Source: an uncultured Gammaproteobacteria bacterium (GTDB lineage: Bacteria > Patescibacteriota > Microgenomatia > CAZETR01 > Amesbacteraceae). Taken from it: a stretch of 64,000 nucleotides of DNA. Below, piece after piece: positions 12,625-36,913 of the stretch. The stretch lies in assembly GCA_964502885.1 (NCBI GenBank), contig CAZCXU010000001.1:93352-157351 (forward strand), in the 5' to 3' direction. Position numbers and translations under genes: made by a program. Below the pieces are notes generated by a model. It saw only the letters and a list, made by a program, of their open reading frames with translations. It did not search any database and was not told the origin of the DNA. The stretch's first letter is position 1, and each line of letters starts with the position of its first letter.

Positions 12625-12633
12625 GCAAAGTCT

Positions 12634-12895: not shown

Positions 12896-12916
12896 CTGGT
12901 ATAAGAGTGGCAGTGT

Positions 12917-17033: not shown

Positions 17034-17321
17034 TTAATGATGATTAATTTCTTCAAGTAATATGAGCGGAAGTTTGAGCAAATGATCCTTTTCTTCCTGA
17101 TAAGGGTCGGAGAAATGTTCATCTGTAGAGTGTGTTTCCACTTCGCGGCGAAGCTCTTCTGTGCTTTTGTGGAGGACCTGCCCAGCCCATTGCCAAAGCG
17201 GGTCAGCGTCTGTTTTGAACTGATCAAAATTATGACAGGAATTACAGATTTCAATTACGGCGTTTTCCAGACTGCTGACGACAGATGGATTTATGTAGTC
17301 AGGGTAGGCAAAAGTGTTCAT
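17034..17321 (-). CDS. small acidic hypothetical protein
   Basis: 95-aa ORF translationally coupled to the upstream VirB4 gene. Confidence 0.35.
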   Translation of the reverse strand: MNTFAYPDYINPSVVSSLENAVIEICNSCHNFDQFKTDADPLWQWAGQVLHKSTEELRREVETHSTDEHFSDPYQEEKDHLLKLPLILLEEINHH

Positions 17322-19183: not shown

Positions 19184-19832
19184 TTTTGACTGATGGAACG
19201 GGAACTTTTGGTAAGGTAACGTTTGTTCCCATTACATCCTGATTATAGGAATTAAAAAATAACTGTAATAGTTCATTTGAGGTTATTTGGCGCCCTTTAA
19301 GACCTATGCGAGCGAGAAGTCGCAACAAATGATCTCTTTTGGGAACAAGGTTTGTAATGGCCCGATCAACTATATAGTCTTTGGGGAGAGTGGTATTTGC
19401 TGACTTACCTCCCAGAACTTTCAGCGAAGAACCAACACCTAATTCAAGTGAACTAAATGGCAAAGATATGTAGAATTTTTTATCCAACACATTTCCCTGA
19501 CGAACGATGGCTTTGACGAAGTCGCGATATTTAGTAAGCTGTTCCTTGAGCTTTGATGTGGTGATTTGGGCAAGGTGAGTGTCCAGTTTTTCGATATAAC
19601 TGGAAATATCTTTTCGTTTGCTGATGAGAACGATTTGGATGGAAAAAGTGAGTGAGTTTAGAAGCTGTGCGTAGGCATAAATGGTGGCGTCCTGCTCTCT
19701 TTCTGAAAGAAGACCAAAGTTGACGGCGCTAATTTCCATGACCATACAGGCCGAGCCGTCTTTGAGAATGACGATGTCGTTTTGAATATCTTCAATGTCC
19801 AGATGATCTTGTGTGCGGGGGGGGATAGTCAT
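19161..19832 (-). CDS. VirB4-family N-terminal domain, separate ORF (split gene or frameshift)
   Basis: DIEDIQNDIVILKDGSACMVMEISAVNFGLLSEREQDATIYAYAQLLNSL matches the N-terminal region of Gram-positive VirB4 homologs. The ORF ends 20 nt inside the start of the ATPase ORF. Confidence 0.5.
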   Translation of the reverse strand: MTIPPRTQDHLDIEDIQNDIVILKDGSACMVMEISAVNFGLLSEREQDATIYAYAQLLNSLTFSIQIVLISKRKDISSYIEKLDTHLAQITTSKLKEQLTKYRDFVKAIVRQGNVLDKKFYISLPFSSLELGVGSSLKVLGGKSANTTLPKDYIVDRAITNLVPKRDHLLRLLARIGLKGRQITSNELLQLFFNSYNQDVMGTNVTLPKVPVPSVKNEATKTP

Positions 19833-19839
19833 ACTTTTT

Positions 19840-20931
19840 TTAGGTTTTTCCGTGAATAATAACAGGGCTAATAATACTGCCTTTGGCTTGAATAGAAACC
19901 GGGTCAAAAGTTAAACCTTCCTTTTCGGCGATGACGTTGTAAGTTCCGGCTGGCAAGGGAATGGCAATTTGGAACTGACCGAGACGATTGGTTCTTAGGG
20001 CCCGTGCAGGAATACCTGTCTTGGTATCAATAATCTCTACAGTTGTTTGTGCTAACGGCTGGGAAGCTGCATCTACAACCATGCCGGTGAGAATATTCGG
20101 ACTGGCAGGATTGGGAAGCTGAGTGGTGACTGTAGCAGATGGGGCTGAAGGAATATTTACAGGTTTGGGAAGCGGGGGAGTGTTAGCAACAACAGCTGAA
20201 ACACCAGAGGAGGTGAGAATTGGTGAGGTAGGAGTGGTGGGTGTAGCTAAAACTGTTTGTGGTGACGCTTCGGCGTGGGGTGTGCCTGCCGATGAGAAAG
20301 AGGTTGAGATGGTTGGAGTTGAGGTGGAATTTTTAACTGGAGATGTAAAGACTGGTTGGGCGCGTGCAGGGGAAGTGGGGATAGGTGCAGAAGAAGGGGC
20401 AGATGTAGGGATAATGGGGGGAACAGTTGAATTAGGAGCGGGTGTGGGAACAATGGAGGAAATGGCTGAGTTAGGAGTAGTTGATGGAGGTAGAGTTTTT
20501 GCGGTGGACATCTGCGGTTCAATTTTTATGGCAGCAGGAATTGGTGCCGGAACGGTGGTGACTGGTTGAGGTGTAGGTGGCGACGGTGGAGCGGCTGTTG
20601 CAGTGGGTGTGATTGGTGGGGGTGGGGCAAGGCTCGCAACGATTTCGTCAGAGATCCAGACATACTCAGTGGGAGAATAGATGGCTTTAAAAAAAGCGAC
20701 GAGCCAAGTGGTAAAGGGTCGATTGTTGATAGGGATAAAGGCCATGAGTGCACCCGTGGTGATGGAAATAAAAACCAGCGGGTATTTGATTATGGGGATT
20801 AATTGGAGACGGAAAATGAGCACCCCCACAACAATGCCTCCTGCCAGCTGGAGAAATTGCTTGAGGGTCATATCGCCCACGAGACGGAACTCGTAGGAGG
20901 AAATATTTTGCGGGACAGGGTGGTTATCCAT
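19840..20931 (-). CDS. PrgI/VirB3-like membrane protein fused to a long Pro/Thr/Ser-rich linker and a C-terminal beta-sandwich (CarbopepD_reg-like) domain
   Basis: N-terminus FRLVGDMTLKQFLQLAGGIVVGVLIF...NNRPFTTWLVAFFKAIYSP resembles the PrgI family and sits directly upstream of VirB4. The C-terminus GTYNVIAEKEGLTFDPVSI is beta-sandwich-like. Confidence 0.4.
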   Translation of the reverse strand: MDNHPVPQNISSYEFRLVGDMTLKQFLQLAGGIVVGVLIFRLQLIPIIKYPLVFISITTGALMAFIPINNRPFTTWLVAFFKAIYSPTEYVWISDEIVASLAPPPPITPTATAAPPSPPTPQPVTTVPAPIPAAIKIEPQMSTAKTLPPSTTPNSAISSIVPTPAPNSTVPPIIPTSAPSSAPIPTSPARAQPVFTSPVKNSTSTPTISTSFSSAGTPHAEASPQTVLATPTTPTSPILTSSGVSAVVANTPPLPKPVNIPSAPSATVTTQLPNPASPNILTGMVVDAASQPLAQTTVEIIDTKTGIPARALRTNRLGQFQIAIPLPAGTYNVIAEKEGLTFDPVSIQAKGSIISPVIIHGKT

Positions 20932-24020: not shown

Positions 24021-25751
24021 TTAGGATGTACCACCTGCGGGAGGGACAGGTCTTCGAATGTTGGCTTCTTTGGCTTTGGAGACTTGCTGACCAGCCGAAG
24101 TCAATTGTCCCATGGTGTCTTTGGCCATCTTTTCAACAAAGTCAGAAGGATCTACAGACTTACAGAACATGTTCTTAACCATGGTTGCTATGTTGGGGGC
24201 GAATGACATGGCCCCTACGAAAACTGCATATTGGACGAAAATATTACTGGGCATGTCAAATAAGGGAAAGTTGGCTTGGTTGTTAAAAAAGAAGCCTATG
24301 TCTCCGGCGAATCCTGGGACGGGAGTGCGAGTGTCAAACCCTGCATTAATTAGAATTGCTAAGAGAGCATATGTCACAAAAATTGAGGCATTGCCGATGA
24401 GACAAAGAAGCCATTTTTTAAATCCACCAAAATCAGATTTCTTCGATGGGATAATATCGAAAATAATTATTAGCGGGCCGGCGACAACCAGAAGATTAAA
24501 AGTAATAAAGGCGACCACAAATTGACCAATAATTCTGGCCCAGACGTAAATTGACCAAAGGAAGAAACCAAGAATGAAACCAGCTATGAGAACAACCACT
24601 CCTCCAGAAGCAAGATTAAGCAGTGCAGCTAGAACTATAGTGAGAATTATCAGTACTATGGAAACAACTATCCAAAAGGCAAGGAAATGCCAGACAAAAT
24701 CAAAACCGCCTCCAGCTAAGGTGGACATAGCAAGCGGCAAGTCAGTTATAATTGTCATGCCGATAGCTGTTTGGGCAAAATAAAGCATGCCAATAATTGC
24801 GGAAATGGCTAAGTACATCAGGTCAATTACGAAGCCGGCAATGGCGTATGAAAAGAGAACCAACACAATAGATATGGCAATGCGGGGAATAACCATTTGA
24901 ATTGTTACCGAGACTTGCGGAGATATTTTTGAACGGAACATAACCATAAAACCAGCAATGATGATAATCAGGGTGGTAATTAATAGTGCGATGTTTCGAG
25001 TGGCGATCCAAAATGCTCGGGTAGGAGAGTCTGTCGTTCCGGTACCACCCAAGCCAAGTCTTTCGTAACCACTTCCTTGCGCAAACGTGTCCGAGACAAT
25101 GTTGAGTTTTGAAGCAAGTTGTTTAGTTTCAGACCAGGCTGAGGGGAGGGTGTCAATTTGTGATGAGATATAGTAGGTAAGCTTGAGTACTCCAATATAA
25201 CTTTGACCTATGAATCCATATTTATTAACAAATGCCAGATCAGAAGAAGAAAAATTTTGAGTGACGAGCATGCTGCGGGCAAGATCTATCGCTGTGAGTA
25301 AATCAGTGATGTTTTGCAAAAGGGCTGCTGGATCAGGAGAAGATATAACTGAGGGAAATAACATCGAAGAGAGAGAGTTGAGGATCCAGTTTACTTGAGC
25401 GTAGGTGTAGCGCTCACCAAAAATTTCGTCGGGATTTGTATTGTCGAAAACTTTTTGCTGGAACTCCTGAATTGAAGGATTGTACCAAGGGTGTGGTGTT
25501 ACTTCGGCGAAGAACAAACGGGAGATTTCGTAGATGAGATAGGAGCAACGTGCTGCATCACCGAAAGGGTTGGGGGAAATGGCTTGACAGGCAGCATCTG
25601 CCTGAGCGCACAGCGGCTCGGCGGGATCACAGGTCGGTTGGGCAAGAACCGGTGATGGTGTGATAAATACTGTTAACCCTATGAATAGAAACGAAAGGGT
25701 AAAAAGGTATTTTTTAATCAGCATTGAAAGATGTTTTGTCATGGAAGACAT
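24021..25751 (-). CDS. VirB6/TrbL-like polytopic membrane protein
   Basis: Signal peptide, a ~240-aa extracytoplasmic domain, then at least 6 TM helices. Context with VirB4 and pilins. Confidence 0.5.
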   Translation of the reverse strand: MSSMTKHLSMLIKKYLFTLSFLFIGLTVFITPSPVLAQPTCDPAEPLCAQADAACQAISPNPFGDAARCSYLIYEISRLFFAEVTPHPWYNPSIQEFQQKVFDNTNPDEIFGERYTYAQVNWILNSLSSMLFPSVISSPDPAALLQNITDLLTAIDLARSMLVTQNFSSSDLAFVNKYGFIGQSYIGVLKLTYYISSQIDTLPSAWSETKQLASKLNIVSDTFAQGSGYERLGLGGTGTTDSPTRAFWIATRNIALLITTLIIIIAGFMVMFRSKISPQVSVTIQMVIPRIAISIVLVLFSYAIAGFVIDLMYLAISAIIGMLYFAQTAIGMTIITDLPLAMSTLAGGGFDFVWHFLAFWIVVSIVLIILTIVLAALLNLASGGVVVLIAGFILGFFLWSIYVWARIIGQFVVAFITFNLLVVAGPLIIIFDIIPSKKSDFGGFKKWLLCLIGNASIFVTYALLAILINAGFDTRTPVPGFAGDIGFFFNNQANFPLFDMPSNIFVQYAVFVGAMSFAPNIATMVKNMFCKSVDPSDFVEKMAKDTMGQLTSAGQQVSKAKEANIRRPVPPAGGTS

Positions 25752-25797: not shown

Positions 25798-28700
25798 TTA
25801 GGGAAAGGGAAACGGGCAGCTGGGAGCAATCCATTCCCATTTGCCTTGAAGGCCAGGATTTGCGGCGGTACCGTCTCCCAACGCATATAGATCGGATTCG
25901 GCGGTGGGAATGCAGGAGTCACCCACCAGGTATATGGCAGAGAATACCCGTACTCCTCCGTAAGTATTTATTTCAGATGCGCAACGGGATCTGATGGCAT
26001 TTACGGTAAGGAGGTGACCGGTGATTTGCTGATCGAAGTTGTTTGGTGTGTTGTATTGACCGACGTGAACGCCAAAATCTTCTACTGGAGTGTTGGCTTC
26101 GTAATTGCTGGCGTCCGATTCGTTTAACCAAATCAATAGTGAAAGTCCAGGATTTACGCCGGCGGCGTCTGCGCGTGTGACGACGTCGTTGTAGCAAAGT
26201 TCTGCGAAAGTGCCATCCGGAAAATTGGTCCAGCGCCTGGCGATGTCTATGTAGTTAGTGCGATCTACACAGGGTGTGTTGGTTTCGGGAAGATTGGTGT
26301 TGCAGTTTATGCCGCCCGGTGAGTCTATAGGGCTGACTGATCCTACAAAGCCTTTTGGTCGGAGGGCGCGTTGGAGATTGAGGTTTTCACGGGTGGGGAC
26401 ACCAAGAATGTGATCGGCAAGGCTGCCGACCTTGGGAAAATAAAAAGCTCCCCCAGAAGTGCGCAAACCTCCTCCGATACCACCAGAGGCTACATTACGT
26501 CCTGCCGTGACACGGGGATTGATCAAATTTTGCACCTGGCCGTTGTAGGCTGCACTAGTTCCTGCCGGTATGGATACGTCTCTGTTGTTGGTGATGTCGT
26601 AATCGGTTTGTGTGATCTGCCAAATGCAGGAGTAGCCCTGGGATGCCATTGCCTGACAGGCTGTTTCGGTTAATTGGTTAGAACAAATTCCAAGATCTCG
26701 GGGTGAGGTGGTGGTGCAAGCTTCATATGTGCCAGTCAGGGGGAGTTTGGGCATCCAGCGACGAAGGACTGAGTTTGGGCCTGCCACAAGGATGTCATAG
26801 AGCTTTTCGATGTATGGTGTTTTTACAAAAGGATTAACCCGTGCAGCTGATCTCAGGTTGCGGGTTGGCCAGACAGGGCAGTGAGGAGGACGAGGGGCCA
26901 GTGCGGGAGCGGCACGAACAACACGCCACTCACAGTATGGTGACATTCCGGCGGCAGTACACCCAGTTTGGTCCAGGGCCGAACAAACAGAAGCATAACT
27001 ATCGTATCCAGATCTGCTGCGGCAGGCATATTCATCAGTGGGGGCACAACATATTTCGCCAGCATTACCACAATCCAGATCAATTATTTCCCGATTTTCG
27101 CCACATCCGTTTGGACCGGGCGCGCGGCAGTCGTATGTGGAGCTGGCATGGTAGCACTCGCTAATCCAAGGACAGCGTTGTCCGATTTGAATCGTGCAGC
27201 ATTCGCCCCCAGGAAGCTGGTCATTGCATTCATCTCCCTCCAGGGAACAGGGTCTATTGATGCAGTTGCCGGCACCGGCGGGACACGGGTTTGCGTCACA
27301 GCCAATTACGAGTCGGGGTGTGTAGCGGAAGAGCTGACGATATGTAAGATTTCCGTTTAGGACGTTTCCCAGCAGGCGATCTCCGGATGAAGTACGAGTT
27401 TCGGCTTCGTCGCAAGTAAAGTCTGATGGAACATATAACGCAGCGGGCGCAGGTCCGTCAATAATTTCCGTGTTGCGAATGACAGTTCCGCCACCAGAGC
27501 AGCCCCTGAGAATGGAGCCTGCAAAATATCTTTGGCAGAGAACAACTGTTTCGTCGGAGTGTCCTTCGGATGCTCCAAAACCCTGATGGCGGGCAACTCT
27601 TTGGGAAAACATATTGCTATTTTCAGAACTGAACAAGGGAGCGTGTGTGGCGGCAGGGGGTGTTGGCGTTGGAGTAGGTGTGGCCAGAACAACAGTTTGA
27701 CTTGAATAACTGGATCCGGCGAGACGAATACGAATGCTGCCGGGGAGACCGCGACTGACAAACCACTGGCTACTTCCGCCGTAGCGATAATATGAATGAG
27801 GCCATGTAGGTATGATGCCTTCGTAATAGCGTTGCACACTGACACTGGGGTCAACATAGTTACTGAGTGGACCGTAGTCTTGGTTTGTTGTCGGATCAAA
27901 AACATGGAATTGGTTCCAAAGCGCTTCACCCATACCTGGCAAACCGTAATAAACATCTATCAGGTTGTAAGCTGGCAAGTAAAAAGCCCGGAGATAGTCT
28001 GCCGGATTTGTTGATAAAACAGGAGTGGGGATTGGGGGCGGGGGGGGAGGGGCGGTGGGAGGAACAATTACCGGATATGGCTGATGCAAAGCTTGGACGA
28101 GACTTGATAAAGGAACAGCTGATTTCATGTGCGGGAAATAAAGCCGTGAATCAAAGCGGCCTGAAATAAGGGTGGGAAAACTGAGGCCAATAGTGAGAAT
28201 TCGGCCATCGATGTCTACGGGTTGAGCTTCCGGAATAACACTTGCTGTAAACTCACTCACAGTGTCCTCAAGAGTTGAGTAATTGATGTATTTATGTGTC
28301 CAGGTTTCGGTATCGAAATTGCTGGCCACCCAACTAAGGCGGCGACGCAGGGTGCTGCTGACGCAGGGTTCTGCGAGGTCGAGACGTAAAGCTGCAGTGA
28401 TGTTTCCGATGCGACTCAGCAGGTTTCTGCCTAGGGAAAAAAGCATGTTTACATCATCAAGGTTGTTGGCTATCACAGTAAAACCGTAATTTAAAAGTAC
28501 ATTTCTAATTCCGATTGGGTTGAATTGATCGCCCGGAAGTAAGGCAATGTTGACAAGTGCGCCACCAAAATCCTGCATATTATTCATGCCAACTCGACGG
28601 ATGATATCGATCATTCTGACAACATCAAGGAAACTGCCAAATGAGTTTGTAAATATTGCTTCCAGAGCGTCTAAAACATAATCAAAGTCGATGTTCCGCT

Positions 28701-29460
28701 GACAGGAAACCAGATAGTTGTGGTACTGTGACCCTACGTTGTTGCTGGCAACGGTTTCCTTTATGTCATCACGGAAGTCTTTTGGATATAATTTGTTTAT
28801 TGGCCCTGAATAAGAGGTGATGCGTTTAGTGTCGGCCGGATCGAAACCGTTTAAGGGAAGTTTTTCTGACTGGAATACCGTACCATTCAGATACCAATTA
28901 AGATATTGGTTAACTTTGTAATCGTCGGGAATTGCAACTTCGGTCTGGCCGAAAATGGGGAGTTGGGAGTTGGTCGCATTGATAGCGACTGTCCAGCGAA
29001 CTCGTTTGACGTAGCAAATGTCTGTGGATCCTGACTCACAGAGATAGTCGTCAGAACGATCGCCGCCCTCCTGGGTTAGGGGGACACTGATGGGGTTGGC
29101 CGGGAGGACTGAAAGACCACACATGTCAATAACGTCTGAGACCTCATCGTAACCTGAGACATTTAGGGATTTGGCACAATGAAATGAGAGATAGACTTTA
29201 TTGGGATCGTCCGGGGCTTCGGGGACTTTTGCGGGAATGAGGACATCGCAAGGGTTTCCAGGATAGGGTCTTAGCGGATGAAATTCCGGATCGTTTCCGG
29301 TATTTGTGTGGCAAGGATAATTAAATGGAGCCGGCCAGGGGTTACGGGTAAAAAATCCGAGAGTGGGGGTCTGGGCGTGAATAAGATTTAGCCATGGAGT
29401 GATGGCAGAAAAGACTGCTACAACAGAGCTTACTACTAACAACTTAACGGTCGGTTTCAT
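25798..29460 (-). CDS. giant secreted Cys-rich surface protein (1220 aa)
   Basis: Signal peptide MKPTVKLLVVSSVVAVFSAITPWLNLIHAQ. Pro-rich linkers PPTAPPPPPPIPTP and ATPTPTPTPP. The central region is densely Cys-rich (CDANPCPAGAGNCINRPCSLEGDECND...). Confidence 0.6.
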   Translation of the reverse strand: MKPTVKLLVVSSVVAVFSAITPWLNLIHAQTPTLGFFTRNPWPAPFNYPCHTNTGNDPEFHPLRPYPGNPCDVLIPAKVPEAPDDPNKVYLSFHCAKSLNVSGYDEVSDVIDMCGLSVLPANPISVPLTQEGGDRSDDYLCESGSTDICYVKRVRWTVAINATNSQLPIFGQTEVAIPDDYKVNQYLNWYLNGTVFQSEKLPLNGFDPADTKRITSYSGPINKLYPKDFRDDIKETVASNNVGSQYHNYLVSCQRNIDFDYVLDALEAIFTNSFGSFLDVVRMIDIIRRVGMNNMQDFGGALVNIALLPGDQFNPIGIRNVLLNYGFTVIANNLDDVNMLFSLGRNLLSRIGNITAALRLDLAEPCVSSTLRRRLSWVASNFDTETWTHKYINYSTLEDTVSEFTASVIPEAQPVDIDGRILTIGLSFPTLISGRFDSRLYFPHMKSAVPLSSLVQALHQPYPVIVPPTAPPPPPPIPTPVLSTNPADYLRAFYLPAYNLIDVYYGLPGMGEALWNQFHVFDPTTNQDYGPLSNYVDPSVSVQRYYEGIIPTWPHSYYRYGGSSQWFVSRGLPGSIRIRLAGSSYSSQTVVLATPTPTPTPPAATHAPLFSSENSNMFSQRVARHQGFGASEGHSDETVVLCQRYFAGSILRGCSGGGTVIRNTEIIDGPAPAALYVPSDFTCDEAETRTSSGDRLLGNVLNGNLTYRQLFRYTPRLVIGCDANPCPAGAGNCINRPCSLEGDECNDQLPGGECCTIQIGQRCPWISECYHASSTYDCRAPGPNGCGENREIIDLDCGNAGEICCAPTDEYACRSRSGYDSYASVCSALDQTGCTAAGMSPYCEWRVVRAAPALAPRPPHCPVWPTRNLRSAARVNPFVKTPYIEKLYDILVAGPNSVLRRWMPKLPLTGTYEACTTTSPRDLGICSNQLTETACQAMASQGYSCIWQITQTDYDITNNRDVSIPAGTSAAYNGQVQNLINPRVTAGRNVASGGIGGGLRTSGGAFYFPKVGSLADHILGVPTRENLNLQRALRPKGFVGSVSPIDSPGGINCNTNLPETNTPCVDRTNYIDIARRWTNFPDGTFAELCYNDVVTRADAAGVNPGLSLLIWLNESDASNYEANTPVEDFGVHVGQYNTPNNFDQQITGHLLTVNAIRSRCASEINTYGGVRVFSAIYLVGDSCIPTAESDLYALGDGTAANPGLQGKWEWIAPSCPFPFP

Positions 29461-29484: not shown

Positions 29485-29880
29485 TTAGGAGCAGCCGATG
29501 CCTCTGGCTATACAGATATCAAATATTCCCAAATTGATACCGAGGAAAGTGCCAATAAGGTTGACTATTACGAATGCTGACAAGGTGATTATTAATCCTG
29601 CAAGAGAAAAGATAATTGTATTTCTTGCTTGTTCGGTTTGGGCTTTGTCTGCTCCTGCAGCTAGATACTTGTATCCACCAATAACCAGAAATCCTAAAGA
29701 AATGAAAACAAAAAGGCTGATGATTGCGGTAATCGCAGCGGCTATTACTCTATTTAGGTTCTGGAGCATTGCGGGCGGAGTAGGGTTTGCAATTGTTGTT
29801 TGAGCTTGAGCGACAGTAGGCCATGCTAATACGAATACAGATGCGGCCAACGTGATCAGTGAGCGAATTGTTGTGTACAT
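29485..29880 (-). CDS. VirB2/TrbC-like pilin paralog 1 of 11
   Basis: Signal peptide ...VAQA, two hydrophobic helices flanking the AAGADKAQTEQARN loop, and a C-terminal Cys pair. Confidence 0.5.
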   Translation of the reverse strand: MYTTIRSLITLAASVFVLAWPTVAQAQTTIANPTPPAMLQNLNRVIAAAITAIISLFVFISLGFLVIGGYKYLAAGADKAQTEQARNTIIFSLAGLIITLSAFVIVNLIGTFLGINLGIFDICIARGIGCS

Positions 29881-29960
29881 CTGTTTTTAATATAGGGCAA
29901 AAAAACAACCCCGGCAAGGGCCCGGGGTTGTTTTGGCCATTTCTGGCCGGTTCCAAAAAC

Positions 29961-30326
29961 TTATGAACCAATCGTTGCGAGATTGAATTCGATAAGGTTG
30001 ACGTTGAAGAGAACACGCAGAATGTACAGTAAGGCGTAAGCAGAGAAGACGATTGCCAAACCGATTAAGGCGGCAGTGATCTTCTTGCGAGCTTTTTCGG
30101 TACCTTCTTTGTCTCCACCAGCGAGAATCCATTGTAAACCACCCCAAAGTAGGATGATAAAGGAAGCTACGCCAGCGATACCCAACATAAGATTCAAGAT
30201 GGTTCTCAAGAAATCTGATGGGGTATAGTTCTTCAAAGTGTCGAAACGTGTATCGACGTTAGCCACGCTACCGACATCCGAGTCTGGAATAGGAAGAGCA
30301 AGTTGTGCAAGTAGTCTCATCATCAA
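29961..30326 (-). CDS. VirB2/TrbC-like pilin paralog 2 of 11
   Basis: Core LLWGGLQWILAGGDKEGTEKARKKITAALIGLAIVFSAYALLYIL. Confidence 0.5.
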   Translation of the reverse strand: MMMRLLAQLALPIPDSDVGSVANVDTRFDTLKNYTPSDFLRTILNLMLGIAGVASFIILLWGGLQWILAGGDKEGTEKARKKITAALIGLAIVFSAYALLYILRVLFNVNLIEFNLATIGS

Positions 30327-30379
30327 ATCTCACCGCCTTTCAGTGGAAAGTATAACATAAAATCAGTGCCGGAGGCTAA

Positions 30380-30754
30380 TTAGAGGGGTGTGATAGTGTA
30401 CTCAATGAGATTGACGTTGAAGAGGGTACGGATGATATACAGAATCGCATAGGATGAAAATACGATAGCCAATCCTATGAGAGCATAGCTGATTTTGCGG
30501 CGAGCTTTCTCGACTGCGTCTTTGTCGGATCCAGCGGTAATCCATTGAAACCCACCTATTAGGAGGAATAAGAATGCGGCAACACCTGACAGGCCCAGGA
30601 GGGCAAGAATCGACGTGCGGATATAGCTGGCGGGCTGAATATTGTAGGTGTTAGCAAAAGGAGAGTTGGGGTCGCGTAGATCTATTAATTGCTGGGCATC
30701 AATAGAAGGAGGAAAGAGAAGCAAGCTTGCCAGGAGAGCGAGAATCAGTTTCAT
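30380..30754 (-). CDS. VirB2/TrbC-like pilin paralog 3 of 11
   Basis: Signal peptide plus core LLIGGFQWITAGSDKDAVEKARRKISYALIGLAIVFSSYAILYII. Confidence 0.5.
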   Translation of the reverse strand: MKLILALLASLLLFPPSIDAQQLIDLRDPNSPFANTYNIQPASYIRTSILALLGLSGVAAFLFLLIGGFQWITAGSDKDAVEKARRKISYALIGLAIVFSSYAILYIIRTLFNVNLIEYTITPL

Positions 30755-30782
30755 GTGAGTTCGAGTTTATAAGAAAGGGTTG

Positions 30783-31454
30783 TCAGTTACAAGGGATGCA
30801 GGTAATCAGGCCACATCCAGTCGTGCCGAGCGGAGTCCAAGAGCCGTTTGATTCGCATCGGAAACATGGACCATTTATGACAGATGTTGATCCTAACGTG
30901 CCTGCCGGAATGCATCTTCCAGTTGCAGATCCGCCACAGGCACACATGCCGGATGGTGGGGTGATGTCGCAGCCGGGATCTGTGGGGTTAGTACAAGGAA
31001 TCCCTGAATCCCAGGGATCACTACCAGGAGCAGGTGGGTTGGGGTCGTTGATCTGAGAGGAAATTTCCCCGATATGTCCGAGGTTGAATTGAATTAAATT
31101 GATGTTAAAGAGGGTGCGGAGAGCAAAAAGGAAACTGTAGGCTGAAAAAACAATTACCAGTCCAATTAAAGCCTGAACAACCTTTCTGCGGGCTTTTTCA
31201 ATTGCGTCTTTATCACCACCAGCCAGTATCCACTGAATACCGCCGATAAGCAGGAATATAAAAGAAAAAACTCCTGCCAGTTGGAGGAGAAGGTTTAGAA
31301 GTGTGGTCAATATCATTGATGGGGTGAGGCTGCGAATTGTCGTAAAATCCGGATCGACGTTTTGTTCTATGCCAATGTAGTCTTGTGCTTTTGCGGTTGC
31401 AGGCATTAAGAACATAGAAATAACTGTGGAGATGTGAACCAGGTGGTTTCGCAT
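30783..31454 (-). CDS. VirB2/TrbC-like pilin paralog 4 of 11 with C-terminal Cys-rich extension
   Basis: Pilin core IQWILAGGDKDAIEKARRKVVQALIGLVIVFSAY, plus a ~100-aa C-terminal tail with 12 Cys. Confidence 0.5.
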   Translation of the reverse strand: MRNHLVHISTVISMFLMPATAKAQDYIGIEQNVDPDFTTIRSLTPSMILTTLLNLLLQLAGVFSFIFLLIGGIQWILAGGDKDAIEKARRKVVQALIGLVIVFSAYSFLFALRTLFNINLIQFNLGHIGEISSQINDPNPPAPGSDPWDSGIPCTNPTDPGCDITPPSGMCACGGSATGRCIPAGTLGSTSVINGPCFRCESNGSWTPLGTTGCGLITCIPCN

Positions 31455-31460
31455 GGGTAA

Positions 31461-31802
31461 TTAGAGGTTTCTTAAGGTGAATCCAATCGGATTTACATTA
31501 AATAGGACACGCAATATATAAAGAATGGCGTAGGAAGAAAAGACGATAACTAAACCTATCAGCGCGTTGATGATTTTACGGCGGGCTTTGTCGATACCAT
31601 CTTTGTCGCCACCGGCAGTAATCCACTGAACTCCACCCCAGAGCAGATAAATAAAGAAGCCAACACCAGCAAGACCCAAGAGAAGACTGATGGCTGTAGC
31701 GACATAAGCGGAGGGTTTGAGGTTTGTAATGTAGTCGTAGTTGCTGTCACCAGAATTGACAGTGATGGGAACAAATTGAGCCAATAGGTGTTGGTTGATC
31801 AT
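31461..31802 (-). CDS. VirB2/TrbC-like pilin paralog 5 of 11
   Basis: Core LLWGGVQWITAGGDKDGIDKARRKIINALIGLVIVFSSYAILYIL. Confidence 0.5.
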   Translation of the reverse strand: MINQHLLAQFVPITVNSGDSNYDYITNLKPSAYVATAISLLLGLAGVGFFIYLLWGGVQWITAGGDKDGIDKARRKIINALIGLVIVFSSYAILYILRVLFNVNPIGFTLRNL

Positions 31803-32131
31803 AGTTCAGGAACGTTGAGGGAGAGAATCGAGACGCCAAATAACACTTCGATTATCCAAATGATTACGAATGAAGAAAGAAGTATGGCAATTCCAATAAG
31901 GGCATTACGAATACGGTGTGTGGCTTTCTGGACGCCTTCCTTATCTCCGCCGGCGGTGATATAGGCAAAACCACCCATTAACAAGTTGACGAAAAAATAA
32001 ATTCCACTTAATCCCATGACGGCATTTAAGACGTTTCTTAGTAGCAACTGGACCATGCTGTCAGCCTCGTTGACGTTGATATTTCCGATTTGACTGTTGA
32101 CCGCAGGGTTGACGATGGTAAACAGATACAT
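31799..32131 (-). CDS. VirB2/TrbC-like pilin paralog 6 of 11
   Basis: Core LLMGGFAYITAGGDKEGVQKATHRIRNALIGIAILLSSFVII. ATGA overlap with paralog 5. Confidence 0.5.
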   Translation of the reverse strand: MYLFTIVNPAVNSQIGNINVNEADSMVQLLLRNVLNAVMGLSGIYFFVNLLMGGFAYITAGGDKEGVQKATHRIRNALIGIAILLSSFVIIWIIEVLFGVSILSLNVPEL

Positions 32132-32134
32132 ATT

Positions 32135-32518
32135 TTAAGGTGAAGCAACAATTAACTGCAATCCGAGACGAAAGATGTCCAATCCCAGGAATCGGCCAAT
32201 GATTCCAATTAGTCCGTATGATCCAACAACTATGAACATACCCAATATGGAAGTGGAAAGACGTTTTTTGCTTACCTCCACGGTATTTTTATCGCCACCG
32301 GCACCAATCCACTGCATTCCGGAAAGGACTATTTGATAGATGAACCAAAGTGACGCGACTATAGTGAGTAAACCGAGGATAGAAGAAACAAATTTTTCCA
32401 ACATATCTCCGGGCCCTCCACCTGTGCCAGTCATAAAAAGTCCTGAATGTCCAAATGTACCCAGAGGTCCGACACCGTCAATGTTTCCCAAGTTGACTTG
32501 AGCTAAAAGGTTTCTCAT
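32135..32518 (-). CDS. VirB2/TrbC-like pilin paralog 7 of 11
   Basis: Core MQWIGAGGDKNTVEVSKKRLSTSILGMFIVVGSYGLIGII. Start set at the internal Met (ATGA overlap with paralog 8); the ORF track extends to 32554. Confidence 0.45.
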   Translation of the reverse strand: MRNLLAQVNLGNIDGVGPLGTFGHSGLFMTGTGGGPGDMLEKFVSSILGLLTIVASLWFIYQIVLSGMQWIGAGGDKNTVEVSKKRLSTSILGMFIVVGSYGLIGIIGRFLGLDIFRLGLQLIVASP

Positions 32519-32874
32519 GGGGTGAATATCCGTGGTGAAATAAGCGTGTTCCATCCATTAATACCATACAGGAAGAGGCCGATGACGCTGGCGATGACTA
32601 ATGATCCGGTGACTATGGCTAGTCCCAGAAAGGATTGCCAAATGCGCTCGTGGGCTTTTTGGACCATTTTGGGGTCGCCATTTGCGCTTAAGTATCCATA
32701 CCCTGCCAAAATTAGATTGATCAATGTGTATATACCAGCCAGGATTATGGAGAGTCGGATGAGGCTGCTAAGAATTAAGATAAGACCTTCGCCCTGAGTG
32801 CCAGCTGCGAGTCTGGGATTGTTGTATCCGGATGTCCCAAATGGATTGTCGATAGTGCCGAATGCTCCTAACAT
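32515..32874 (-). CDS. VirB2/TrbC-like pilin paralog 8 of 11
   Basis: Core LILAGYGYLSANGDPKMVQKAHERIWQSFLGLAIVTGSLVIASVIG. Confidence 0.45.
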   Translation of the reverse strand: MLGAFGTIDNPFGTSGYNNPRLAAGTQGEGLILILSSLIRLSIILAGIYTLINLILAGYGYLSANGDPKMVQKAHERIWQSFLGLAIVTGSLVIASVIGLFLYGINGWNTLISPRIFTP

Positions 32875-32880
32875 AGTTTT

Positions 32881-33231
32881 TTAGACGAATGGCGGGTCAA
32901 TTAAGTTTACACCTGTAATGGTAGATATAATCTGAAGTATAAAATAAGCACTAATGACTAGCAATAAGCCCAGAACTCCATAAGTGACGGAATTTTTTCC
33001 TTGCTGAACACGTTGTGGAGGGTTGATTTGTCCGCCAAAGATAATTAGTAAGTAACCTCCGTGGATGATGAGATAAATGAAATAAAGACTGGCGATTGCC
33101 ATGGCATTGAGGAGTAAGAGAGAGACAATATCGCCCAATTGACCACGGAAAGGGGAGGTGGCCCCAACGTTGGGATGGTTGACGAAAAACTTGTCTTGCA
33201 AGTTTACTGGCGGGTTAAGAAGCTGAAACAT
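32881..33231 (-). CDS. VirB2/TrbC-like pilin paralog 9 of 11 (most divergent)
   Basis: Two hydrophobic helices flank the GGQINPPQRVQQGKNSVTYGVLGLLLVISAYFILQII loop. The C-terminus ILQIISTITGVNLI is shared with paralog 10. Confidence 0.4.
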   Translation of the reverse strand: MFQLLNPPVNLQDKFFVNHPNVGATSPFRGQLGDIVSLLLLNAMAIASLYFIYLIIHGGYLLIIFGGQINPPQRVQQGKNSVTYGVLGLLLVISAYFILQIISTITGVNLIDPPFV

Positions 33232-33234
33232 TTT

Positions 33235-33540
33235 TTAGATTAAGTTGGTGCGGGTAATAGTTTGAATTATTTGCAAAATAAAGAAGGCACTAACTACAGT
33301 AAGGAGGCCAAGAAGCGCGTTGGTGATCTGTCTTTTTATCTGCATGAGTTTGGCTTCGTCGCCCAGGCTTCCCATATATGCGAATCCCGCTGTAATCAGA
33401 TGGTAAAGAAAATAGAGTCCGGCTCCGGCCATGGCAAAGAGAATAGTGCGAGAGGCGATTGTTGAGGGTAGTGTGGCACTGGTCGAGAATCGGCCGGAGG
33501 TGTGGATGAAATCGGGAATCTGAGCTAAATGTGAGTTCAT
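33235..33540 (-). CDS. VirB2/TrbC-like pilin paralog 10 of 11
   Basis: Core FAYMGSLGDEAKLMQIKRQITNALLGLLTVVSAFFILQIIQTITRTNLI. Confidence 0.45.
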   Translation of the reverse strand: MNSHLAQIPDFIHTSGRFSTSATLPSTIASRTILFAMAGAGLYFLYHLITAGFAYMGSLGDEAKLMQIKRQITNALLGLLTVVSAFFILQIIQTITRTNLI

Positions 33541-34055
33541 TAGAGTCGGAAACCAAATAAGGAGAGACCTAAGACGTTAAATCCTAAGAAGTTGAGAACG
33601 ACGATGGCGGAAGTGATAAGAATTAAACCTAGTACTGCCGAGGTGAGTGTGTCTTTGGCGGAATTAATTTTTTTAGGGTCGCCTTCAGCGGTGGCAATAG
33701 TGAAACCCGCATATACGATCAGAAGAAGAGTAGCCAGGCCGGCCAAACCAACTGCCCAAGTAGCAATAATCCAGACTGTATTTTGAGTATCGGAGGTGGG
33801 TATACAACCTAAGGCTGTCCTAATAGCACCAGTGCCTGCACAAAAAGGATTTTGAGCATTACATTCTGCTACAGTGTCGCAACAAAGATGTTCCATAGGG
33901 TTTGCACATTGAGGGCGGGCGACACAGGGACTGTAAGTACCCCATATTGTTCGAGAACGGATTTCACACCAGCTGTAAGTTGGATCTGGGAGGGATAATA
34001 CTGACGTGACAAATAAAAGTGTTGTGATAAGTATTCTAAGTGGTGCAGATTTCAC
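33540..34055 (-). CDS. VirB2/TrbC-like pilin paralog 11 of 11 with N-terminal Cys-rich module
   Basis: Signal peptide, an 8-Cys N-terminal module, then the pilin hairpin GFTIATAEGDPKKINSAKDTLTSAVLGLILITSAIVVLNFLGF. Confidence 0.45.
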   Translation of the reverse strand: MKSAPLRILITTLLFVTSVLSLPDPTYSWCEIRSRTIWGTYSPCVARPQCANPMEHLCCDTVAECNAQNPFCAGTGAIRTALGCIPTSDTQNTVWIIATWAVGLAGLATLLLIVYAGFTIATAEGDPKKINSAKDTLTSAVLGLILITSAIVVLNFLGFNVLGLSLFGFRL

Positions 34056-34080: not shown

Positions 34081-35868
34081 ATGATAATTGGTATGACGAA
34101 AGTGAGACTTACAATAATATGTTTAATAACGTTTTTATGGATAACCATGACATCTTCGGTGCGGGCAGAGGAGTGTGATAATCCAGGAAGTTTGTCTGAT
34201 CCAGTAACAATAACCAGATGCATAGGCAAATTTAATGGAATATTGGAAGCGATTTCGAAAGCAAATTCTAACAACAAGCAGCAGCTGCAGGGGATGCAGC
34301 AACAGATTGCCAAACTACAAGCGCAAATAAAAGCTTTGGAGATGCAAATCGGGGTGCTACAAAAAGGAATATTTGAAAGAGAAGTACGGGTGGGGGTGAA
34401 ACAGGAACTGTTGTCTGCGAAAGTGAGACGTGACTATGTAGTGAAACGAGATCAGCCAATATTGCAGGTGTTGTTTGCTGCTGATGGGGCAGCGGATTTT
34501 TTTCAAGATATGTTTTTGCGGGAGAAGTTGGCGCGGCTGGACCATGCATTGATTGTGTCTGTGGGGGGGGAGATTAAAAATTTGAATGATCAGGCGCAAA
34601 CTTTATCGTCCCAAAAACAAAAACTGGCGAGTCTTCAGGCGCAAGTAGATAAGCAGGCGGATTTTCTACAGGCGGAAGTCGAAAAAGCCAGTAAATATGA
34701 GTCTGATTTGGGAGGGAAGATCTCAGCATTGACCGCTAGGCAACAGGAATTGCTGGCGGAAAAGACTGGGACTATCGCCACTTCGGTCGGAGATGTACCA
34801 CTAGCTGACGATCCGGCCGCGAGACCGGATTACAATCCAGGTTTTTCACCGGCGTTTGCCATGTTTTCGTTCGGGGCGCCACACTTTAAAGGGATGAGCC
34901 AATATGGGGCTTTGGGTAGGGCCAAGGCAGGCCAGAGTTATGAGACCATTCTTAAGGCTTACTATGGTGATGTGAGGATTGTGGATGTGGGAACGGGTTT
35001 TTCGATAAGGACAAGTGCAGGAACAATGCCAATGGAGGATAGATATATGAAGGGGATAGCGGAGATGCCGACGTCGTGGGCAAATGACGGGGGAATGGAG
35101 GCGTTGAAGGCGCAAGCGATAGCGGCCAGAAGCTATGCGTTGAGTTATGTGGGGTGGCGAATGGGTAAACAATCAGCCGGAGGTTCGATTTGTGTGACGG
35201 AAGCGTGTCAGGTATGGAGATCGTCGAAAGCAAACAGTCCCGGAGCGTGGGGAAGTGCTGTTGATCAGACTAAGGGAAAGATTTTGGTGAGTAACAAAAC
35301 GGGAGAAATTATTAGCGCCTGGTATGCGAGTACGTCGGGAGGTTATCAGGAAAGTTATACCACCTTGGGCCATACTACTCCTGGATTTTGGGACACGACA
35401 TCAAATTGGACGAGGTGGGCAGATGGAGCGTATGAGGTAAAAGCAGGAAGTCCGTGGTTTTATAAAGGCTGGTACAAGACCAGGACAGGAAAAACCTGTG
35501 GCAGGGCACATCCGTGGCTTAACCAGGAGGAGTTCTCAGATATGGTGAATGCTGCCATTGTGGTGGAAAGAGGTGGAGATGTGTCGGGAATTTTTCCTGA
35601 AGATGTGAGGAGTTGTTGGGGTGGAAGTGACAATCCATGGTCAAAAGACCGGTTGGCACAGGAAGCGGACAAGCATGGTGGCCGGGTGACGAGTGTCGGT
35701 AGTGTGAGAGTGGAGCATGGAAACAATGGTATTACAAACAAGGTAATACTTTCGACAAATAGAGGAGAAGTTACGATTACCGGAAGTAATTTCAAACGAG
35801 CATTTAATTTGCGCGCCCCAGGAGCTCTAGCTTTGAAGAGTGGACTTTTTAATATCGAAAAGAAGTGA
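34081..35868 (+). CDS. SpoIID/LytB-domain peptidoglycan hydrolase with N-terminal coiled coil
   Basis: Signal peptide, then a heptad-rich region (QQQIAKLQAQIKALEMQIGVLQ). SpoIID signature EALKAQAIAARSYAL. Confidence 0.6.
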   Translation: MIIGMTKVRLTIICLITFLWITMTSSVRAEECDNPGSLSDPVTITRCIGKFNGILEAISKANSNNKQQLQGMQQQIAKLQAQIKALEMQIGVLQKGIFEREVRVGVKQELLSAKVRRDYVVKRDQPILQVLFAADGAADFFQDMFLREKLARLDHALIVSVGGEIKNLNDQAQTLSSQKQKLASLQAQVDKQADFLQAEVEKASKYESDLGGKISALTARQQELLAEKTGTIATSVGDVPLADDPAARPDYNPGFSPAFAMFSFGAPHFKGMSQYGALGRAKAGQSYETILKAYYGDVRIVDVGTGFSIRTSAGTMPMEDRYMKGIAEMPTSWANDGGMEALKAQAIAARSYALSYVGWRMGKQSAGGSICVTEACQVWRSSKANSPGAWGSAVDQTKGKILVSNKTGEIISAWYASTSGGYQESYTTLGHTTPGFWDTTSNWTRWADGAYEVKAGSPWFYKGWYKTRTGKTCGRAHPWLNQEEFSDMVNAAIVVERGGDVSGIFPEDVRSCWGGSDNPWSKDRLAQEADKHGGRVTSVGSVRVEHGNNGITNKVILSTNRGEVTITGSNFKRAFNLRAPGALALKSGLFNIEKK

Positions 35869-35902
35869 AGAGGTTAGAAGATGTTTGGTGTAAAATCAGG
35901 TT

Positions 35903-36628: not shown

Positions 36629-36870
36629 ACGAAACAGCAGGTGTGGCGTGGCTACAGAATTTTTTGGTGAGTGGGCCAGAATTAATTCTTAAGGGGTTTT
36701 TGGTAGTGGGGATGCTAATGTATCTATTTTTTGCGCTGGTGGTAATGAAACAGGTGGCAATTATGACGGAAACCTTTGAATCTGAAGTTAACTCAACAGT
36801 GAAATTGTTTGCATGGGGACATTTTCTGTTGACGGTCGTGATTTTGGCTGTGGTGATAGTGGTACTTTAG
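36625..36870 (+). CDS. small two-TM membrane protein
   Basis: 81 aa, translationally coupled (ATGA) to the upstream gene. Confidence 0.35.
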   Translation: MNETAGVAWLQNFLVSGPELILKGFLVVGMLMYLFFALVVMKQVAIMTETFESEVNSTVKLFAWGHFLLTVVILAVVIVVL

Positions 36871-36913
36871 GAGAGGGCAGAGACTTTTGTTTCTGTGATA
36901 TCCTTTTATTGAT

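What the first reader, a model, noticed from the sequence alone, without database searches (positions are those of the whole stretch)
25798..29460. 1220-aa Cys-rich secreted giant immediately upstream of the pilin array
The protein has a signal peptide, two Pro-rich linkers and a central region packed with Cys in EGF/knottin-like spacing. It sits between the VirB6-like gene and the pilins, the position usually held by a surface adhesin or substrate (PrgB/PrgC-like). No recognisable catalytic motif was found by eye.
Basis: partly seen in the sequence, partly recalled or inferred. Interest (0 to 1): 0.55.

Follow-up and report, generated by a model that had tools for sequence, protein, structure and literature searches.

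The report
Secretion-pilus protein carrying a cell-wall cutter
The 1220-residue protein is a previously undescribed, conserved extracellular part of the type IV secretion machine of ultrasmall Patescibacteria. It has a new core, variable cysteine-rich inserts and a C-terminal lysozyme-like domain that most likely cuts cell wall.

Summary
The ORF is real: 25798-29460, minus strand, 1220 aa. It has a signal-peptide-like N-terminus, two proline linkers and 40 Cys, 24 of them in aa 721-861. It lies in a chromosomal Patescibacteria T4SS locus beside dnaA/dnaN.

It is transcribed after 11 VirB2-like pilin genes and before a polytopic VirB6-like gene. That order held in all 16 related loci examined.

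It has no Pfam, NCBIfam, PHROG or PDB sequence match. A profile search nevertheless found 809 cluster representatives.

The family has a conserved core of about 650 aa (D1, D3, D4, D5). The N-terminal half of the protein (aa 28-605: D1-D3 and the INS insert) has no solved-fold match; no other part of the model gave a PDB match apart from the C-terminal tail.

After a conserved NLQRxLRPxG junction comes an exchangeable enzyme tail:
- In relatives it is SLT_3 or peptidase M23, with GDSL, SASA, NAGPA or GH5 add-ons elsewhere.
- Here it is a confident helical domain whose weak fold hits are almost all GH23 lysozymes or lytic transglycosylases. Glu1114 is invariant.

Best reading: a pilus-linked wall-breaching hydrolase on a new scaffold. 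It is not a PrgB/PrgC-type adhesin. Catalysis, location and target (own wall or host wall) are inferred.

The parts
25798..29460 (-). Whole ORF, 1220 aa plus stop; the protein under study.
   Evidence: identical protein P0001 is in the public collection
29374..29460 (-). Signal-peptide-like N-terminus, aa 1-29 (MKPTVK-LLVVSSVVAVFSAI...IHA|Q).
   Evidence: Only hydrophobic segment in the protein. The AHA|QTP motif is conserved in orthologues. Cleavage is inferred.
28705..29373 (-). Core module D1, aa 30-252 (EFHPLRPYP, LPxxGNTE, KVNxYLSWYLNGT, SGPLxKLxP motifs).
   Evidence: Local HMM hits 153 of 156 family representatives. AF2 pLDDT 58-95.
28306..28704 (-). D2, aa 253-385: helical insert found only in close relatives.
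   Evidence: HMM hits 22 of 156. pLDDT above 90, helical.
28066..28305 (-). Core module D3, aa 386-465 (YSTLEDTTSEFT, DSRLYFPH motifs).
   Evidence: HMM hits 149 of 156.
27655..28065 (-). Variable insert INS, aa 466-602: Tyr-rich and bounded by the two Pro-rich linkers.
   Evidence: HMM hits 3 of 156. Length is 2-180 aa among orthologues. AF2 pLDDT below 50.
27301..27654 (-). Core module D4, aa 603-720 (HQG, IRNTE, PAPxPLY, CD..R.N.GD.L, LTYxQLFRYTP motifs).
   Evidence: HMM hits 119 of 156. The model is low-confidence here.
26881..27300 (-). Variable Cys-rich insert, aa 721-860 (23 Cys), including mini-motif copy CSALDQTGCTAAGMSPYCEW (aa 826-845).
   Evidence: HMM hits 14 of 156. Length is 62-196 aa among orthologues.
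26341..26880 (-). Core module D5, aa 861-1040 (CPxWP, LRSAAR..PFTKTP.IEK.YD.LV, RVTAG, LYFPxLGS motifs). It carries a 40-aa Cys mini-domain insert (aa 906-955).
   Evidence: HMM hits 144 of 156. Insert length is 10-50 aa.
26350..26385 (-). Junction motif NLNLQRALRPKG, aa 1026-1037. The exchangeable tail starts after it.
   Evidence: Q[RKC]x[LF]RP found in 71 of 156 by regex; Q1030, R1034 and P1035 are invariant in the alignments. A low-confidence linker follows.
25801..26340 (-). C-terminal 'type A' tail, aa 1041-1220: a divergent lysozyme-like (GH23-like) domain and the putative peptidoglycan glycan-strand hydrolase.
   Evidence: pLDDT above 90, all-helical. Foldseek top hits are g-type lysozymes, MltE, Slt and MltF and phage SLT proteins, but E>=0.1. 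This tail type is found in 91 of 143 tails.
26116..26121 (-). Codons for Glu1114-Ser1115, the putative catalytic Glu plus Ser.
   Evidence: E in 91 of 91 and S/T in 90 of 91 type-A tails. Located at the C-terminal end of helix aa 1104-1115.
29485..34055 (-). Array of 11 VirB2-like T4SS pilin genes, transcribed just before the giant.
   Evidence: PF18895 hits. Sequences listed.
24021..25751 (-). 576-aa polytopic membrane protein (VirB6-like by topology and position), transcribed just after the giant.
   Evidence: About 7 hydrophobic helices. Homologue follows the family gene in all loci long enough to show it. No Pfam hit.
17318..20931 (-). Core T4SS genes: PrgI/VirB3-like (19840-20931), TrsD-like (19161-19907) and the VirB4 ATPase (17318-19183).
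16162..17028 (-). 288-aa Cys-rich single-TM protein downstream of virB4; the positional counterpart of an M23 peptidase in relatives.
   Evidence: no Pfam hit here
34081..35868 (+). SpoIID-domain protein, divergently transcribed from the pilin array; syntenic in relatives.

Best explanation
The protein is a Sec-exported, disulfide-rich extracellular component of the MPF-FATA-derived type IV secretion system of a Patescibacteria (Amesbacteria/Microgenomates-type) chromosome.

A conserved core of about 650 aa (D1, D3, D4, D5) acts as the scaffold. The N-terminal half of the protein (D1-D3) has no solved-fold match; D4 modelled poorly, and no part of the C-half model other than the tail gave a PDB match. 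Because the gene is locked between the pilin genes and the VirB6-like gene, the scaffold most likely couples the protein to the VirB2-like pilus or the VirB6-like channel.

Surface loops of the scaffold carry lineage-variable inserts.

A flexible linker after the conserved NLQRxLRPxG junction tethers an exchangeable envelope-degrading enzyme. In this protein that enzyme is a divergent GH23-type lysozyme-like domain. Its invariant Glu1114 would cleave peptidoglycan glycan strands and open cell wall for the pilus or channel.

What is shown:
- the ORF and its composition;
- the size of the family and its invariant gene order;
- the modular architecture and tail swapping;
- recognised hydrolase domains in relatives;
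- a confident helical model of the tail, with lysozyme-family fold hits and an invariant Glu.

What is inferred:
- signal-peptide cleavage and disulfide formation;
- physical association with the pilus or channel;
- muralytic activity;
- the target wall. I lean towards the partner or host envelope, but the protein's own wall is not excluded.
For: Context:
- Pilin array, then this gene, then the VirB6-like gene, in the window and in all 16 related loci. PrgI, TrsD and VirB4 are nearby wherever the contig reaches far enough.

Family:
- 809 representatives at E<=1e-3 and 439 at E<=1e-30.
- The core modules are found in 119-153 of 156 representatives, the inserts in only 3-22.
- Core identity among orthologues is 53-65%. 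The inserts are 29-38% identical and vary in length.

Tail:
- 143 of 144 proteins with D5 have a tail of at least 100 aa. The tails fall into at least 10 BLAST-unrelated types.
- Pfam recognises SLT_3 (6e-8), Peptidase_M23 (3e-14), GDSL (2e-11) and SASA (4e-14) in tails.
- Pfam recognises GDSL, NAGPA (6e-36), Glyco_hydro_cc and GH5 as further add-ons.
- Type-B tails link to tails with the classical SLT motif by hhalign at 90.7%.

This protein's tail:
- pLDDT above 90 and helical.
- Nearly all of the top 30 Foldseek PDB hits are GH23 lysozymes or lytic transglycosylases. The best is 3gxk, with E 0.13, probability 0.82 and TM 0.48.
- BFVD hits are phage SLT, PRD1 P7 and LT_GEWL proteins.
- E1114 is present in 91 of 91 type-A tails, S/T1115 in 90 of 91, D1128 in 98%, and W1111 and G1130 in 100%.

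Literature:
- The Patescibacteria T4SS has essential pilin arrays and essential locus-encoded lysozyme and peptidase proteins.
- Recognisable VirB1 is mostly missing in these lineages (PMC12102498; PMC10633639 Table S2).
Against: - No sequence method links the type-A tail to GH23 or SLT. Pfam gives nothing at E<=1. PDB profile searches give nothing. hhalign to the other tail types is at most 33%.
- All fold matches are individually insignificant (E>=0.1).
- Nothing here shows where the protein sits or that it contacts pilins.
- The locus already encodes other wall enzymes: SpoIID, and an M23-like protein downstream of virB4. The hydrolase role could therefore be shared or redundant.
Confidence: 0.55

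Rival explanations
1. A self-directed assembly hydrolase only. In this reading the protein is the locus's VirB1/PrgK/TraG equivalent. It cuts the producer's own peptidoglycan so that the channel and pilus can be built, and it has no role at the partner cell.
For: - T4SS-linked lytic enzymes are the established precedent (VirB1; PrgK and TraG in monoderms, as summarised in PMC12102498).
- In this lineage the gene downstream of virB4 is only an M23-type endopeptidase. A glycan-strand cutter elsewhere in the locus would complete the pair.
Against: - Other loci with the same family also carry a CHAP-containing protein of about 780 aa right after virB4, which would be the classical VirB1-like enzyme.
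- Tail types switch among close Amesbacteria orthologues.
- The add-on modules include acetylesterases, a phosphodiester glycosidase and GH5. That range is broader than one's own wall should require.
- The cleavable-looking signal peptide differs from the TM anchor of PrgK and TraG.
Confidence: 0.25
2. A non-catalytic adhesin or pilus-tip protein. The Cys-rich and Pro-flanked inserts bind the partner surface, and the C-terminal domain only binds glycan.
For: - Variable, disulfide-rich surface inserts and a recurrent mobile Cys mini-motif.
- The gene position mirrors virB5 next to virB6 in Gram-negative systems (my knowledge).
- No adhesin has been recognised so far in Patescibacteria T4SS loci (PMC12102498).
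Against: - Glu1114-Ser and Asp1128 are invariant across 91 diverged tails, and bona fide hydrolase domains occupy the same position in relatives. Both argue for catalysis.
- No LPXTG anchor, adhesin domain or VirB5-like fold was found.
Confidence: 0.1
3. A free secreted polymorphic toxin or lysin. It would be exported by Sec and released to kill or lyse neighbouring bacteria, and it merely happens to be encoded next to the T4SS.
For: A conserved N-terminal region, a conserved junction motif and swapped C-terminal enzyme domains resemble polymorphic-toxin architecture.
Against: - There is no variable immunity-like gene. The downstream gene is the same conserved VirB6-like protein in every locus.
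- The gene order with the pilins is invariant across distant members.
- There is only one copy per locus, and none elsewhere in the window.
Confidence: 0.07

Closest known systems
VirB1-type T4SS peptidoglycan hydrolases (VirB1 of Agrobacterium; PrgK of pCF10, TraG of pIP501, TcpG, CD419/TrsG in monoderms)
   Same: Encoded inside a T4SS locus. Lysozyme-like/SLT-type catalytic module with a Glu at a helix end. The monoderm versions are large and multi-domain.
   Different: - No detectable sequence similarity and no SLT or CHAP Pfam hit.
- A cleavable-looking signal peptide instead of a TM anchor.
- A conserved core of about 650 aa; its N-terminal half has no solved-fold match, D4 was modelled poorly and no core part gave a PDB match.
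- The gene is fixed between the pilin array and the VirB6-like gene rather than beside virB4.
- The enzyme tail is exchangeable.
SEML1_0006 / SEML1_0007 of Southlakia epibionticum ML1 (essential T4SS-locus proteins; Wang et al. 2023, PMC10633639 Table S2)
   Same: SEML1_0007 is 1113 aa, with an unannotated N-terminal region and a C-terminal DD-peptidase/M23-like domain at aa 951-1105. SEML1_0006 has two lysozyme-like domains and a cysteine-proteinase domain. Both are essential for epibiotic growth. The layout 'large unknown part plus C-terminal wall hydrolase' is the same.
   Different: They lie downstream of virB4, not after the pilin array.
VirB5/TraC-type minor pilins (pilus-tip proteins of Gram-negative T4SS)
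   Same: Sec-exported extracellular T4SS protein whose gene lies between the pilin gene(s) and virB6.
   Different: VirB5 is a three-helix bundle of about 220 aa (my knowledge). Foldseek of the N-terminal half against the PDB gave no match to it or to anything else (best E 2.5). VirB5 carries no enzyme domain.
PrgB / PrgC surface proteins of pCF10
   Same: Large extracellular proteins encoded in a monoderm T4SS operon upstream of the VirB6-like gene.
   Different: No C-terminal LPXTG-TM-charged tail, no adhesin or repeat domains, and no sequence similarity.
Polymorphic toxins and phage virion-associated lysins or depolymerases
   Same: A conserved delivery or scaffold region, a conserved junction motif, and swapped C-terminal enzyme cassettes aimed at cell envelopes.
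   Different: No immunity gene. No PHROG, phage or plasmid similarity. Always embedded in a chromosomal T4SS operon.

Membership tests
Lysozyme-like superfamily, GH23 type (goose-type lysozyme / SLT lytic transglycosylases), for aa 1041-1220 | All-alpha lysozyme-like fold | tested here: inconclusive
Lysozyme-like superfamily, GH23 type | Catalytic Glu at the C-terminal end of a helix, usually followed by Ser (the E-S motif) | tested here: met
   E1114 in 91 of 91 and S/T1115 in 90 of 91 type-A tails. The residue sits at the end of helix aa 1104-1115.
Lysozyme-like superfamily, GH23 type | Match to a curated SLT or lysozyme sequence model | tested here: not met
   No Pfam hit at E<=1. No PDB profile hit at E<=10. 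hhalign to SLT_3-type and SLT-motif tails is below 1%.
Lysozyme-like superfamily, GH23 type | Muralytic activity | not testable with these tools
   Needs an enzyme assay.
VirB1 / PrgK-type T4SS hydrolase | Encoded within a T4SS gene cluster | tested here: met
   Pilins, PrgI, TrsD-like and VirB4 lie within 12 kb. Synteny holds in 16 loci.
VirB1 / PrgK-type T4SS hydrolase | Recognisable SLT and/or CHAP/LytM domains; N-terminal membrane anchor in monoderm versions | tested here: not met
   No SLT, CHAP or M23 Pfam hit in this protein. The N-terminus looks like a cleavable signal peptide (AxA|Q).
PrgB/PrgC-like LPXTG surface adhesin | C-terminal LPXTG motif followed by a hydrophobic segment and a charged tail | tested here: not met
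   The only LPLTG is internal (aa 906-910) and not conserved. The C-terminus is ...SCPFPFP, with no TM segment.
PrgB/PrgC-like LPXTG surface adhesin | Adhesin or repeat domains recognisable by profile | tested here: not met
   Zero Pfam or NCBIfam families.
VirB5-type minor pilin | Helical-bundle protein of about 220 aa with the VirB5/TraC fold | tested here: not met
   The protein is 1220 aa. The N-half model has no PDB match (best E 2.5).
EGF / knottin-type Cys-rich domains | Match to EGF, knottin or defensin models, or their Cys spacing | tested here: not met
   No Pfam hit. One relative has a single Toxin_29 hit at E 0.076. One 33-residue defensin fold hit at E 8. The enriched pattern is the family's own C..C..CxW motif.
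Polymorphic toxin systems | Variable C-terminal domain after a conserved junction | tested here: met
   At least 10 tail types follow the NLQRxLRPxG motif.
Polymorphic toxin systems | Cognate variable immunity gene immediately downstream | tested here: not met
   The downstream gene is the conserved VirB6-like protein in all loci.

The most novel reading that the evidence does not exclude
The family is the working head of the Patescibacteria T4SS pilus. It would be a new class of pilus-coupled scaffold that carries interchangeable envelope-degrading cassettes to the host cell: lysozyme-like, M23, acetylesterase, phosphodiester glycosidase or GH5. It would bore through the host wall, and this would explain how these epibionts reach host cytoplasmic resources and why the T4SS is essential. 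Tail type and Cys-rich inserts would then track host range.
Probability: 0.3. Interest if true: 0.8.

Novelty: new variant of a known kind. Interest (0 to 1): 0.6.

Why it matters
The Patescibacteria T4SS is essential for epibiotic growth in the one species tested. Its function is unknown, and published surveys report no adhesin and mostly no VirB1 in these lineages (PMC12102498, PMC10633639).

This work identifies a large uncharacterised protein family with 809 cluster representatives and no Pfam model. The family is always wedged between the pilin array and the VirB6-like gene, and it carries swappable cell-envelope-degrading modules.

That gives a concrete, testable candidate for the step at which the machine breaches a cell wall. 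It also offers a possible marker of host specificity.

Tried and rejected
Searches that found nothing:
- Pfam, NCBIfam and PHROG scans of the protein: no hits.
- PDB sequence-profile searches with the tail (A2, A3, A10) and with the whole-family profile: nothing, or a spurious Vav motif.
- hhalign of type-A against type-B tails: no relation.
- Local hhalign of type A against the other tail clusters: at most 33%.
- Foldseek of the N-terminal half against the PDB: no fold match.
- tblastn against plasmids and phages: no match.

- The exact-match contig look-up for P0001 was not on record, and the cluster look-up gave no name.
- Word-indexed homology searches saw only 14, 11 and 2 proteins. The first impression of a 14-member family was an artefact of that index; the full profile scan corrected it.

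Ideas tested and dropped:
- Promoter and terminator scan: at chance level.
- DNA repeats that would point to a diversity-generating retroelement: only the conserved pilin motif repeats.
- EGF/knottin, LPXTG sorting, VirB5 and classical polymorphic toxin with immunity gene. Details are in the membership tests.


Full report
**Observation.** The window has an ATG-initiated ORF of 1220 codons at 25798..29460 on the minus strand.
- The product has one hydrophobic segment, at aa 5-27, followed by IHA|Q. Orthologues conserve AHA|QTP at that point.
- It has two proline linkers, at aa 466-480 and 594-602.
- It has 40 cysteines, 24 of them within aa 721-861.
- Three details need correcting:
  - On its own strand the gene follows the pilin genes rather than preceding them.
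  - The Cys spacing matches no EGF, knottin or other model.
  - There is a candidate catalytic motif, in the C-terminal domain.

**Context.** The window is chromosomal. It carries dnaA (12917-14275), dnaN (14529-15647), tmRNA, SmpB and tRNAs. On the minus strand, in order of transcription, lie:
- eleven ORFs matching Pfam T4SS_pilin PF18895 (34055 down to 29485);
- the giant, after a 24-nt gap;
- a 576-aa protein with a signal-like N-terminus, about 220 extracellular residues and about 7 hydrophobic helices, after a 46-nt gap. It is VirB6-like by topology only.

Further on are a PrgI/VirB3-like protein fused to a CarboxypepD_reg domain, a TrsD-like protein and a VirB4 ATPase. This is the MPF-FATA-derived Patescibacteria T4SS described by Quinonero-Coronel et al. 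(PMC12102498). That description includes pilin arrays of 2-11 genes in Microgenomatia and proximity to dnaA and dnaN. The closest genomes carrying the gene are Candidatus Amesbacteria MAGs of the Microgenomates group.

**Family.** The word-indexed search found only 14 relatives. A profile scan of 1.84 billion cluster representatives found 809 at E<=1e-3 and 439 at E<=1e-30, with lengths of about 350-1540 aa. No member carries an informative name.

In the window and in all 16 related loci examined, the order is a pilin array of 5-13 genes, then this family, then a homologue of the 576-aa membrane protein. These loci include distant members such as P0026, P0050, P0157 and P0160. SpoIID lies divergently upstream, and PrgI, TraC-like and VirB4 lie downstream wherever the contig reaches that far. 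There is one copy in the window. There is no similarity to plasmids or phages.

**Architecture.** Local HMMs cut from the orthologue alignment define two kinds of region.

| Region | Residues | Found in (of 156) |
|---|---|---|
| Core D1 | 30-252 | 153 |
| Core D3 | 386-465 | 149 |
| Core D4 | 603-720 | 119 |
| Core D5 | 861-1040 | 144 |
| Insert D2 (helical) | 253-385 | 22 |
| Insert INS (Pro-flanked) | 466-602 | 3 |
| Insert CYS (Cys-rich) | 721-860 | 14 |

- Among Amesbacteria orthologues the core is 53-65% identical.
- The inserts are 29-38% identical and vary from 2-180, 62-196 and 10-50 residues.
- A small motif, C-S-x-L-D/T-x3-C-x6-9-C-x-W, occurs 42 times in the family against 2.7 +/- 1.8 in shuffles. 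It sits in different loops in different orthologues.

**The tail.** D5 ends in a strongly conserved NLQ[RKC]xLRP[KQ]G motif (aa 1026-1037 here). A low-confidence linker and then a C-terminal tail follow it. A tail of at least 100 aa is present in 143 of 144 proteins that have D5.

The tails fall into at least 10 types that BLAST cannot connect. Close orthologues differ in type: P0009, P0011 and P0012 differ from P0001.

Pfam recognises several tails and add-ons.

| Domain | Best E-value |
|---|---|
| SLT_3 | 6e-8 |
| Peptidase_M23 | 3e-14 |
| GDSL hydrolase | 2e-11 |
| SASA acetylesterase | 4e-14 |
| N-terminal or extra GDSL | 1e-15 to 1e-16 |
| NAGPA phosphodiester glycosidase | 6e-36 |
| Glyco_hydro_cc | 1.9e-4 |
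| GH5 | 3.9e-7 |

Type-B tails connect to tails with the classical SLT motif by hhalign at 90.7%. The tail position is thus a cassette for cell-envelope-degrading enzymes.

**This protein's tail (type A, the commonest: 91 of 143).** It has no sequence-level link to any known family. The evidence for a lysozyme-like domain is as follows.
- With a 78-sequence alignment, AlphaFold2 models aa 1052-1220 as a confident all-helical domain with pLDDT above 90.
- Foldseek against the PDB returns no significant hit, but nearly all of the top 30 are GH23 enzymes: goose-type lysozymes, MltE, Slt, MltF and a GH23 chitinase. The best has E 0.13, probability 0.82 and TM 0.48.
- Against viral models the hits are SLT proteins, PRD1 P7 and LT_GEWL, at E 0.1-8.
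- Glu1114 is present in 91 of 91 tails, Ser/Thr1115 in 90 of 91, Asp1128 in 98%, and Trp1111 and Gly1130 in 100%.
- Glu1114 lies at the C-terminal end of a helix, as the catalytic Glu does in GH23 enzymes (my knowledge).
That is a lead only.
- I put the lysozyme-like assignment at about 0.7.

**Mechanism.** My best reading is that the protein is exported by Sec and folds with disulfides outside the membrane. Its conserved core associates it with the pilus or the VirB6-like channel, as the fixed gene order suggests. Its tethered lysozyme-like tail then cuts peptidoglycan.

Whether the target is the producer's own wall or the partner cell's wall is open.
- For a partner target:
  - Tail type switches among close relatives.
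  - The accessory esterase and glycosidase modules resemble phage depolymerase repertoires.
  - The surface inserts are hypervariable.
  - Other loci hold a classical CHAP-containing VirB1-like protein beside virB4 alongside this family.
- For a self target:
  - VirB1 and PrgK are the precedent.
  - In this lineage the enzyme downstream of virB4 is only M23-like, so a glycan cutter would complement it.

**Comparison with known systems.**
- It works like a VirB1/PrgK-type T4SS hydrolase but fails their sequence and domain criteria. It has a different scaffold, anchoring and gene position.
- It shares its overall layout with the essential SEML1_0007 of S. epibionticum. Homology to that protein was not tested.
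- It is not PrgB/PrgC-like, VirB5-like or EGF/knottin-like. It lacks the immunity gene of polymorphic toxins.
- The published surveys I could read do not describe this family.

**Verdict.** This is a real, conserved, uncharacterised T4SS component. I class it as a new variant of a known kind: a T4SS-linked wall hydrolase on a new modular scaffold. Interest 0.6.

Noticed in passing
window 29485-34055 (-): There are eleven tandem VirB2-like pilin genes. Pilin 4 (30783-31454, 223 aa) has a C-terminal Cys-rich extension and pilin 11 (33540-34055, 171 aa) an N-terminal one. The only DNA-level repeat in the region is the conserved GGxQWIxAGGDKD motif.
   Followed up: partly
window 21182-23962 (+): A 926-aa protein has no TM segment, signal peptide or Pfam/NCBIfam hit. 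A gene of 670-1190 aa occupies the same position, on the opposite strand, in all long related loci. It may be the counterpart of SEML1_0011 (ARM-repeat 'T4SS protein') of S. epibionticum.
   Followed up: no
window 16162-17028 (-): A 288-aa single-TM protein with 8 Cys lies downstream of virB4 and has no Pfam hit. Its positional counterpart in L002 is a Peptidase_M23 protein, and its C-terminus has an HLHLE (HxH-like) motif. It is probably a divergent M23 endopeptidase.
   Followed up: partly
window 12917-15647: dnaA and dnaN lie directly beside the T4SS locus. This matches the origin-proximal placement reported for Microgenomatia T4SS (PMC12102498).
   Followed up: yes
window 34081-38773 (+): A block is transcribed divergently from the pilin array and is syntenic in relatives. 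It comprises a coiled-coil SpoIID-domain protein, a bPH_2-like membrane protein (35903-36628), DUF5657 (36625-36870) and a 619-aa single-TM protein.
   Followed up: partly
P0001 aa 826-845 and 926-947 (window 26926-26985 and 26620-26685); family-wide: A mobile three-Cys mini-motif, C-S-x-L-D/T-x3-C-x6-9-C-x-W, is inserted in different loops in different orthologues. It occurs 42 times against 2.7 expected by shuffling. Its structure and role are unknown.
   Followed up: partly
L016 9219-9584 (-): A bAvd/23S_rRNA_IVP-family gene sits inside the pilin array just before the last pilin and the family gene. This may hint at a diversity-generating retroelement, but no reverse transcriptase was called within 10 kb.
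   Followed up: no
L004, L008, L012, L013 (record titles): Several MAGs carrying this Patescibacteria-type T4SS locus are titled 'uncultured Gammaproteobacteria bacterium'. This is probably a labelling error in those TPA assemblies.
   Followed up: no
L006 9581-13052: In this Amesbacteria MAG the family gene is split into two ORFs, with D1 in 9581-11827 and D5 plus tail in 12093-13052. The second ORF appears as a separate 275-aa protein, P0162. The cause may be a frameshift, an assembly error or a genuine split.
   Followed up: no
L016 20154-22160, L017 22479-23219: In more distant loci a protein of about 780 aa follows virB4; in L017 it has a weak CHAP hit, while the L016 counterpart has no Pfam hit on record. 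If VirB1/PrgK-like, such a hydrolase coexists there with the giant family.
   Followed up: partly
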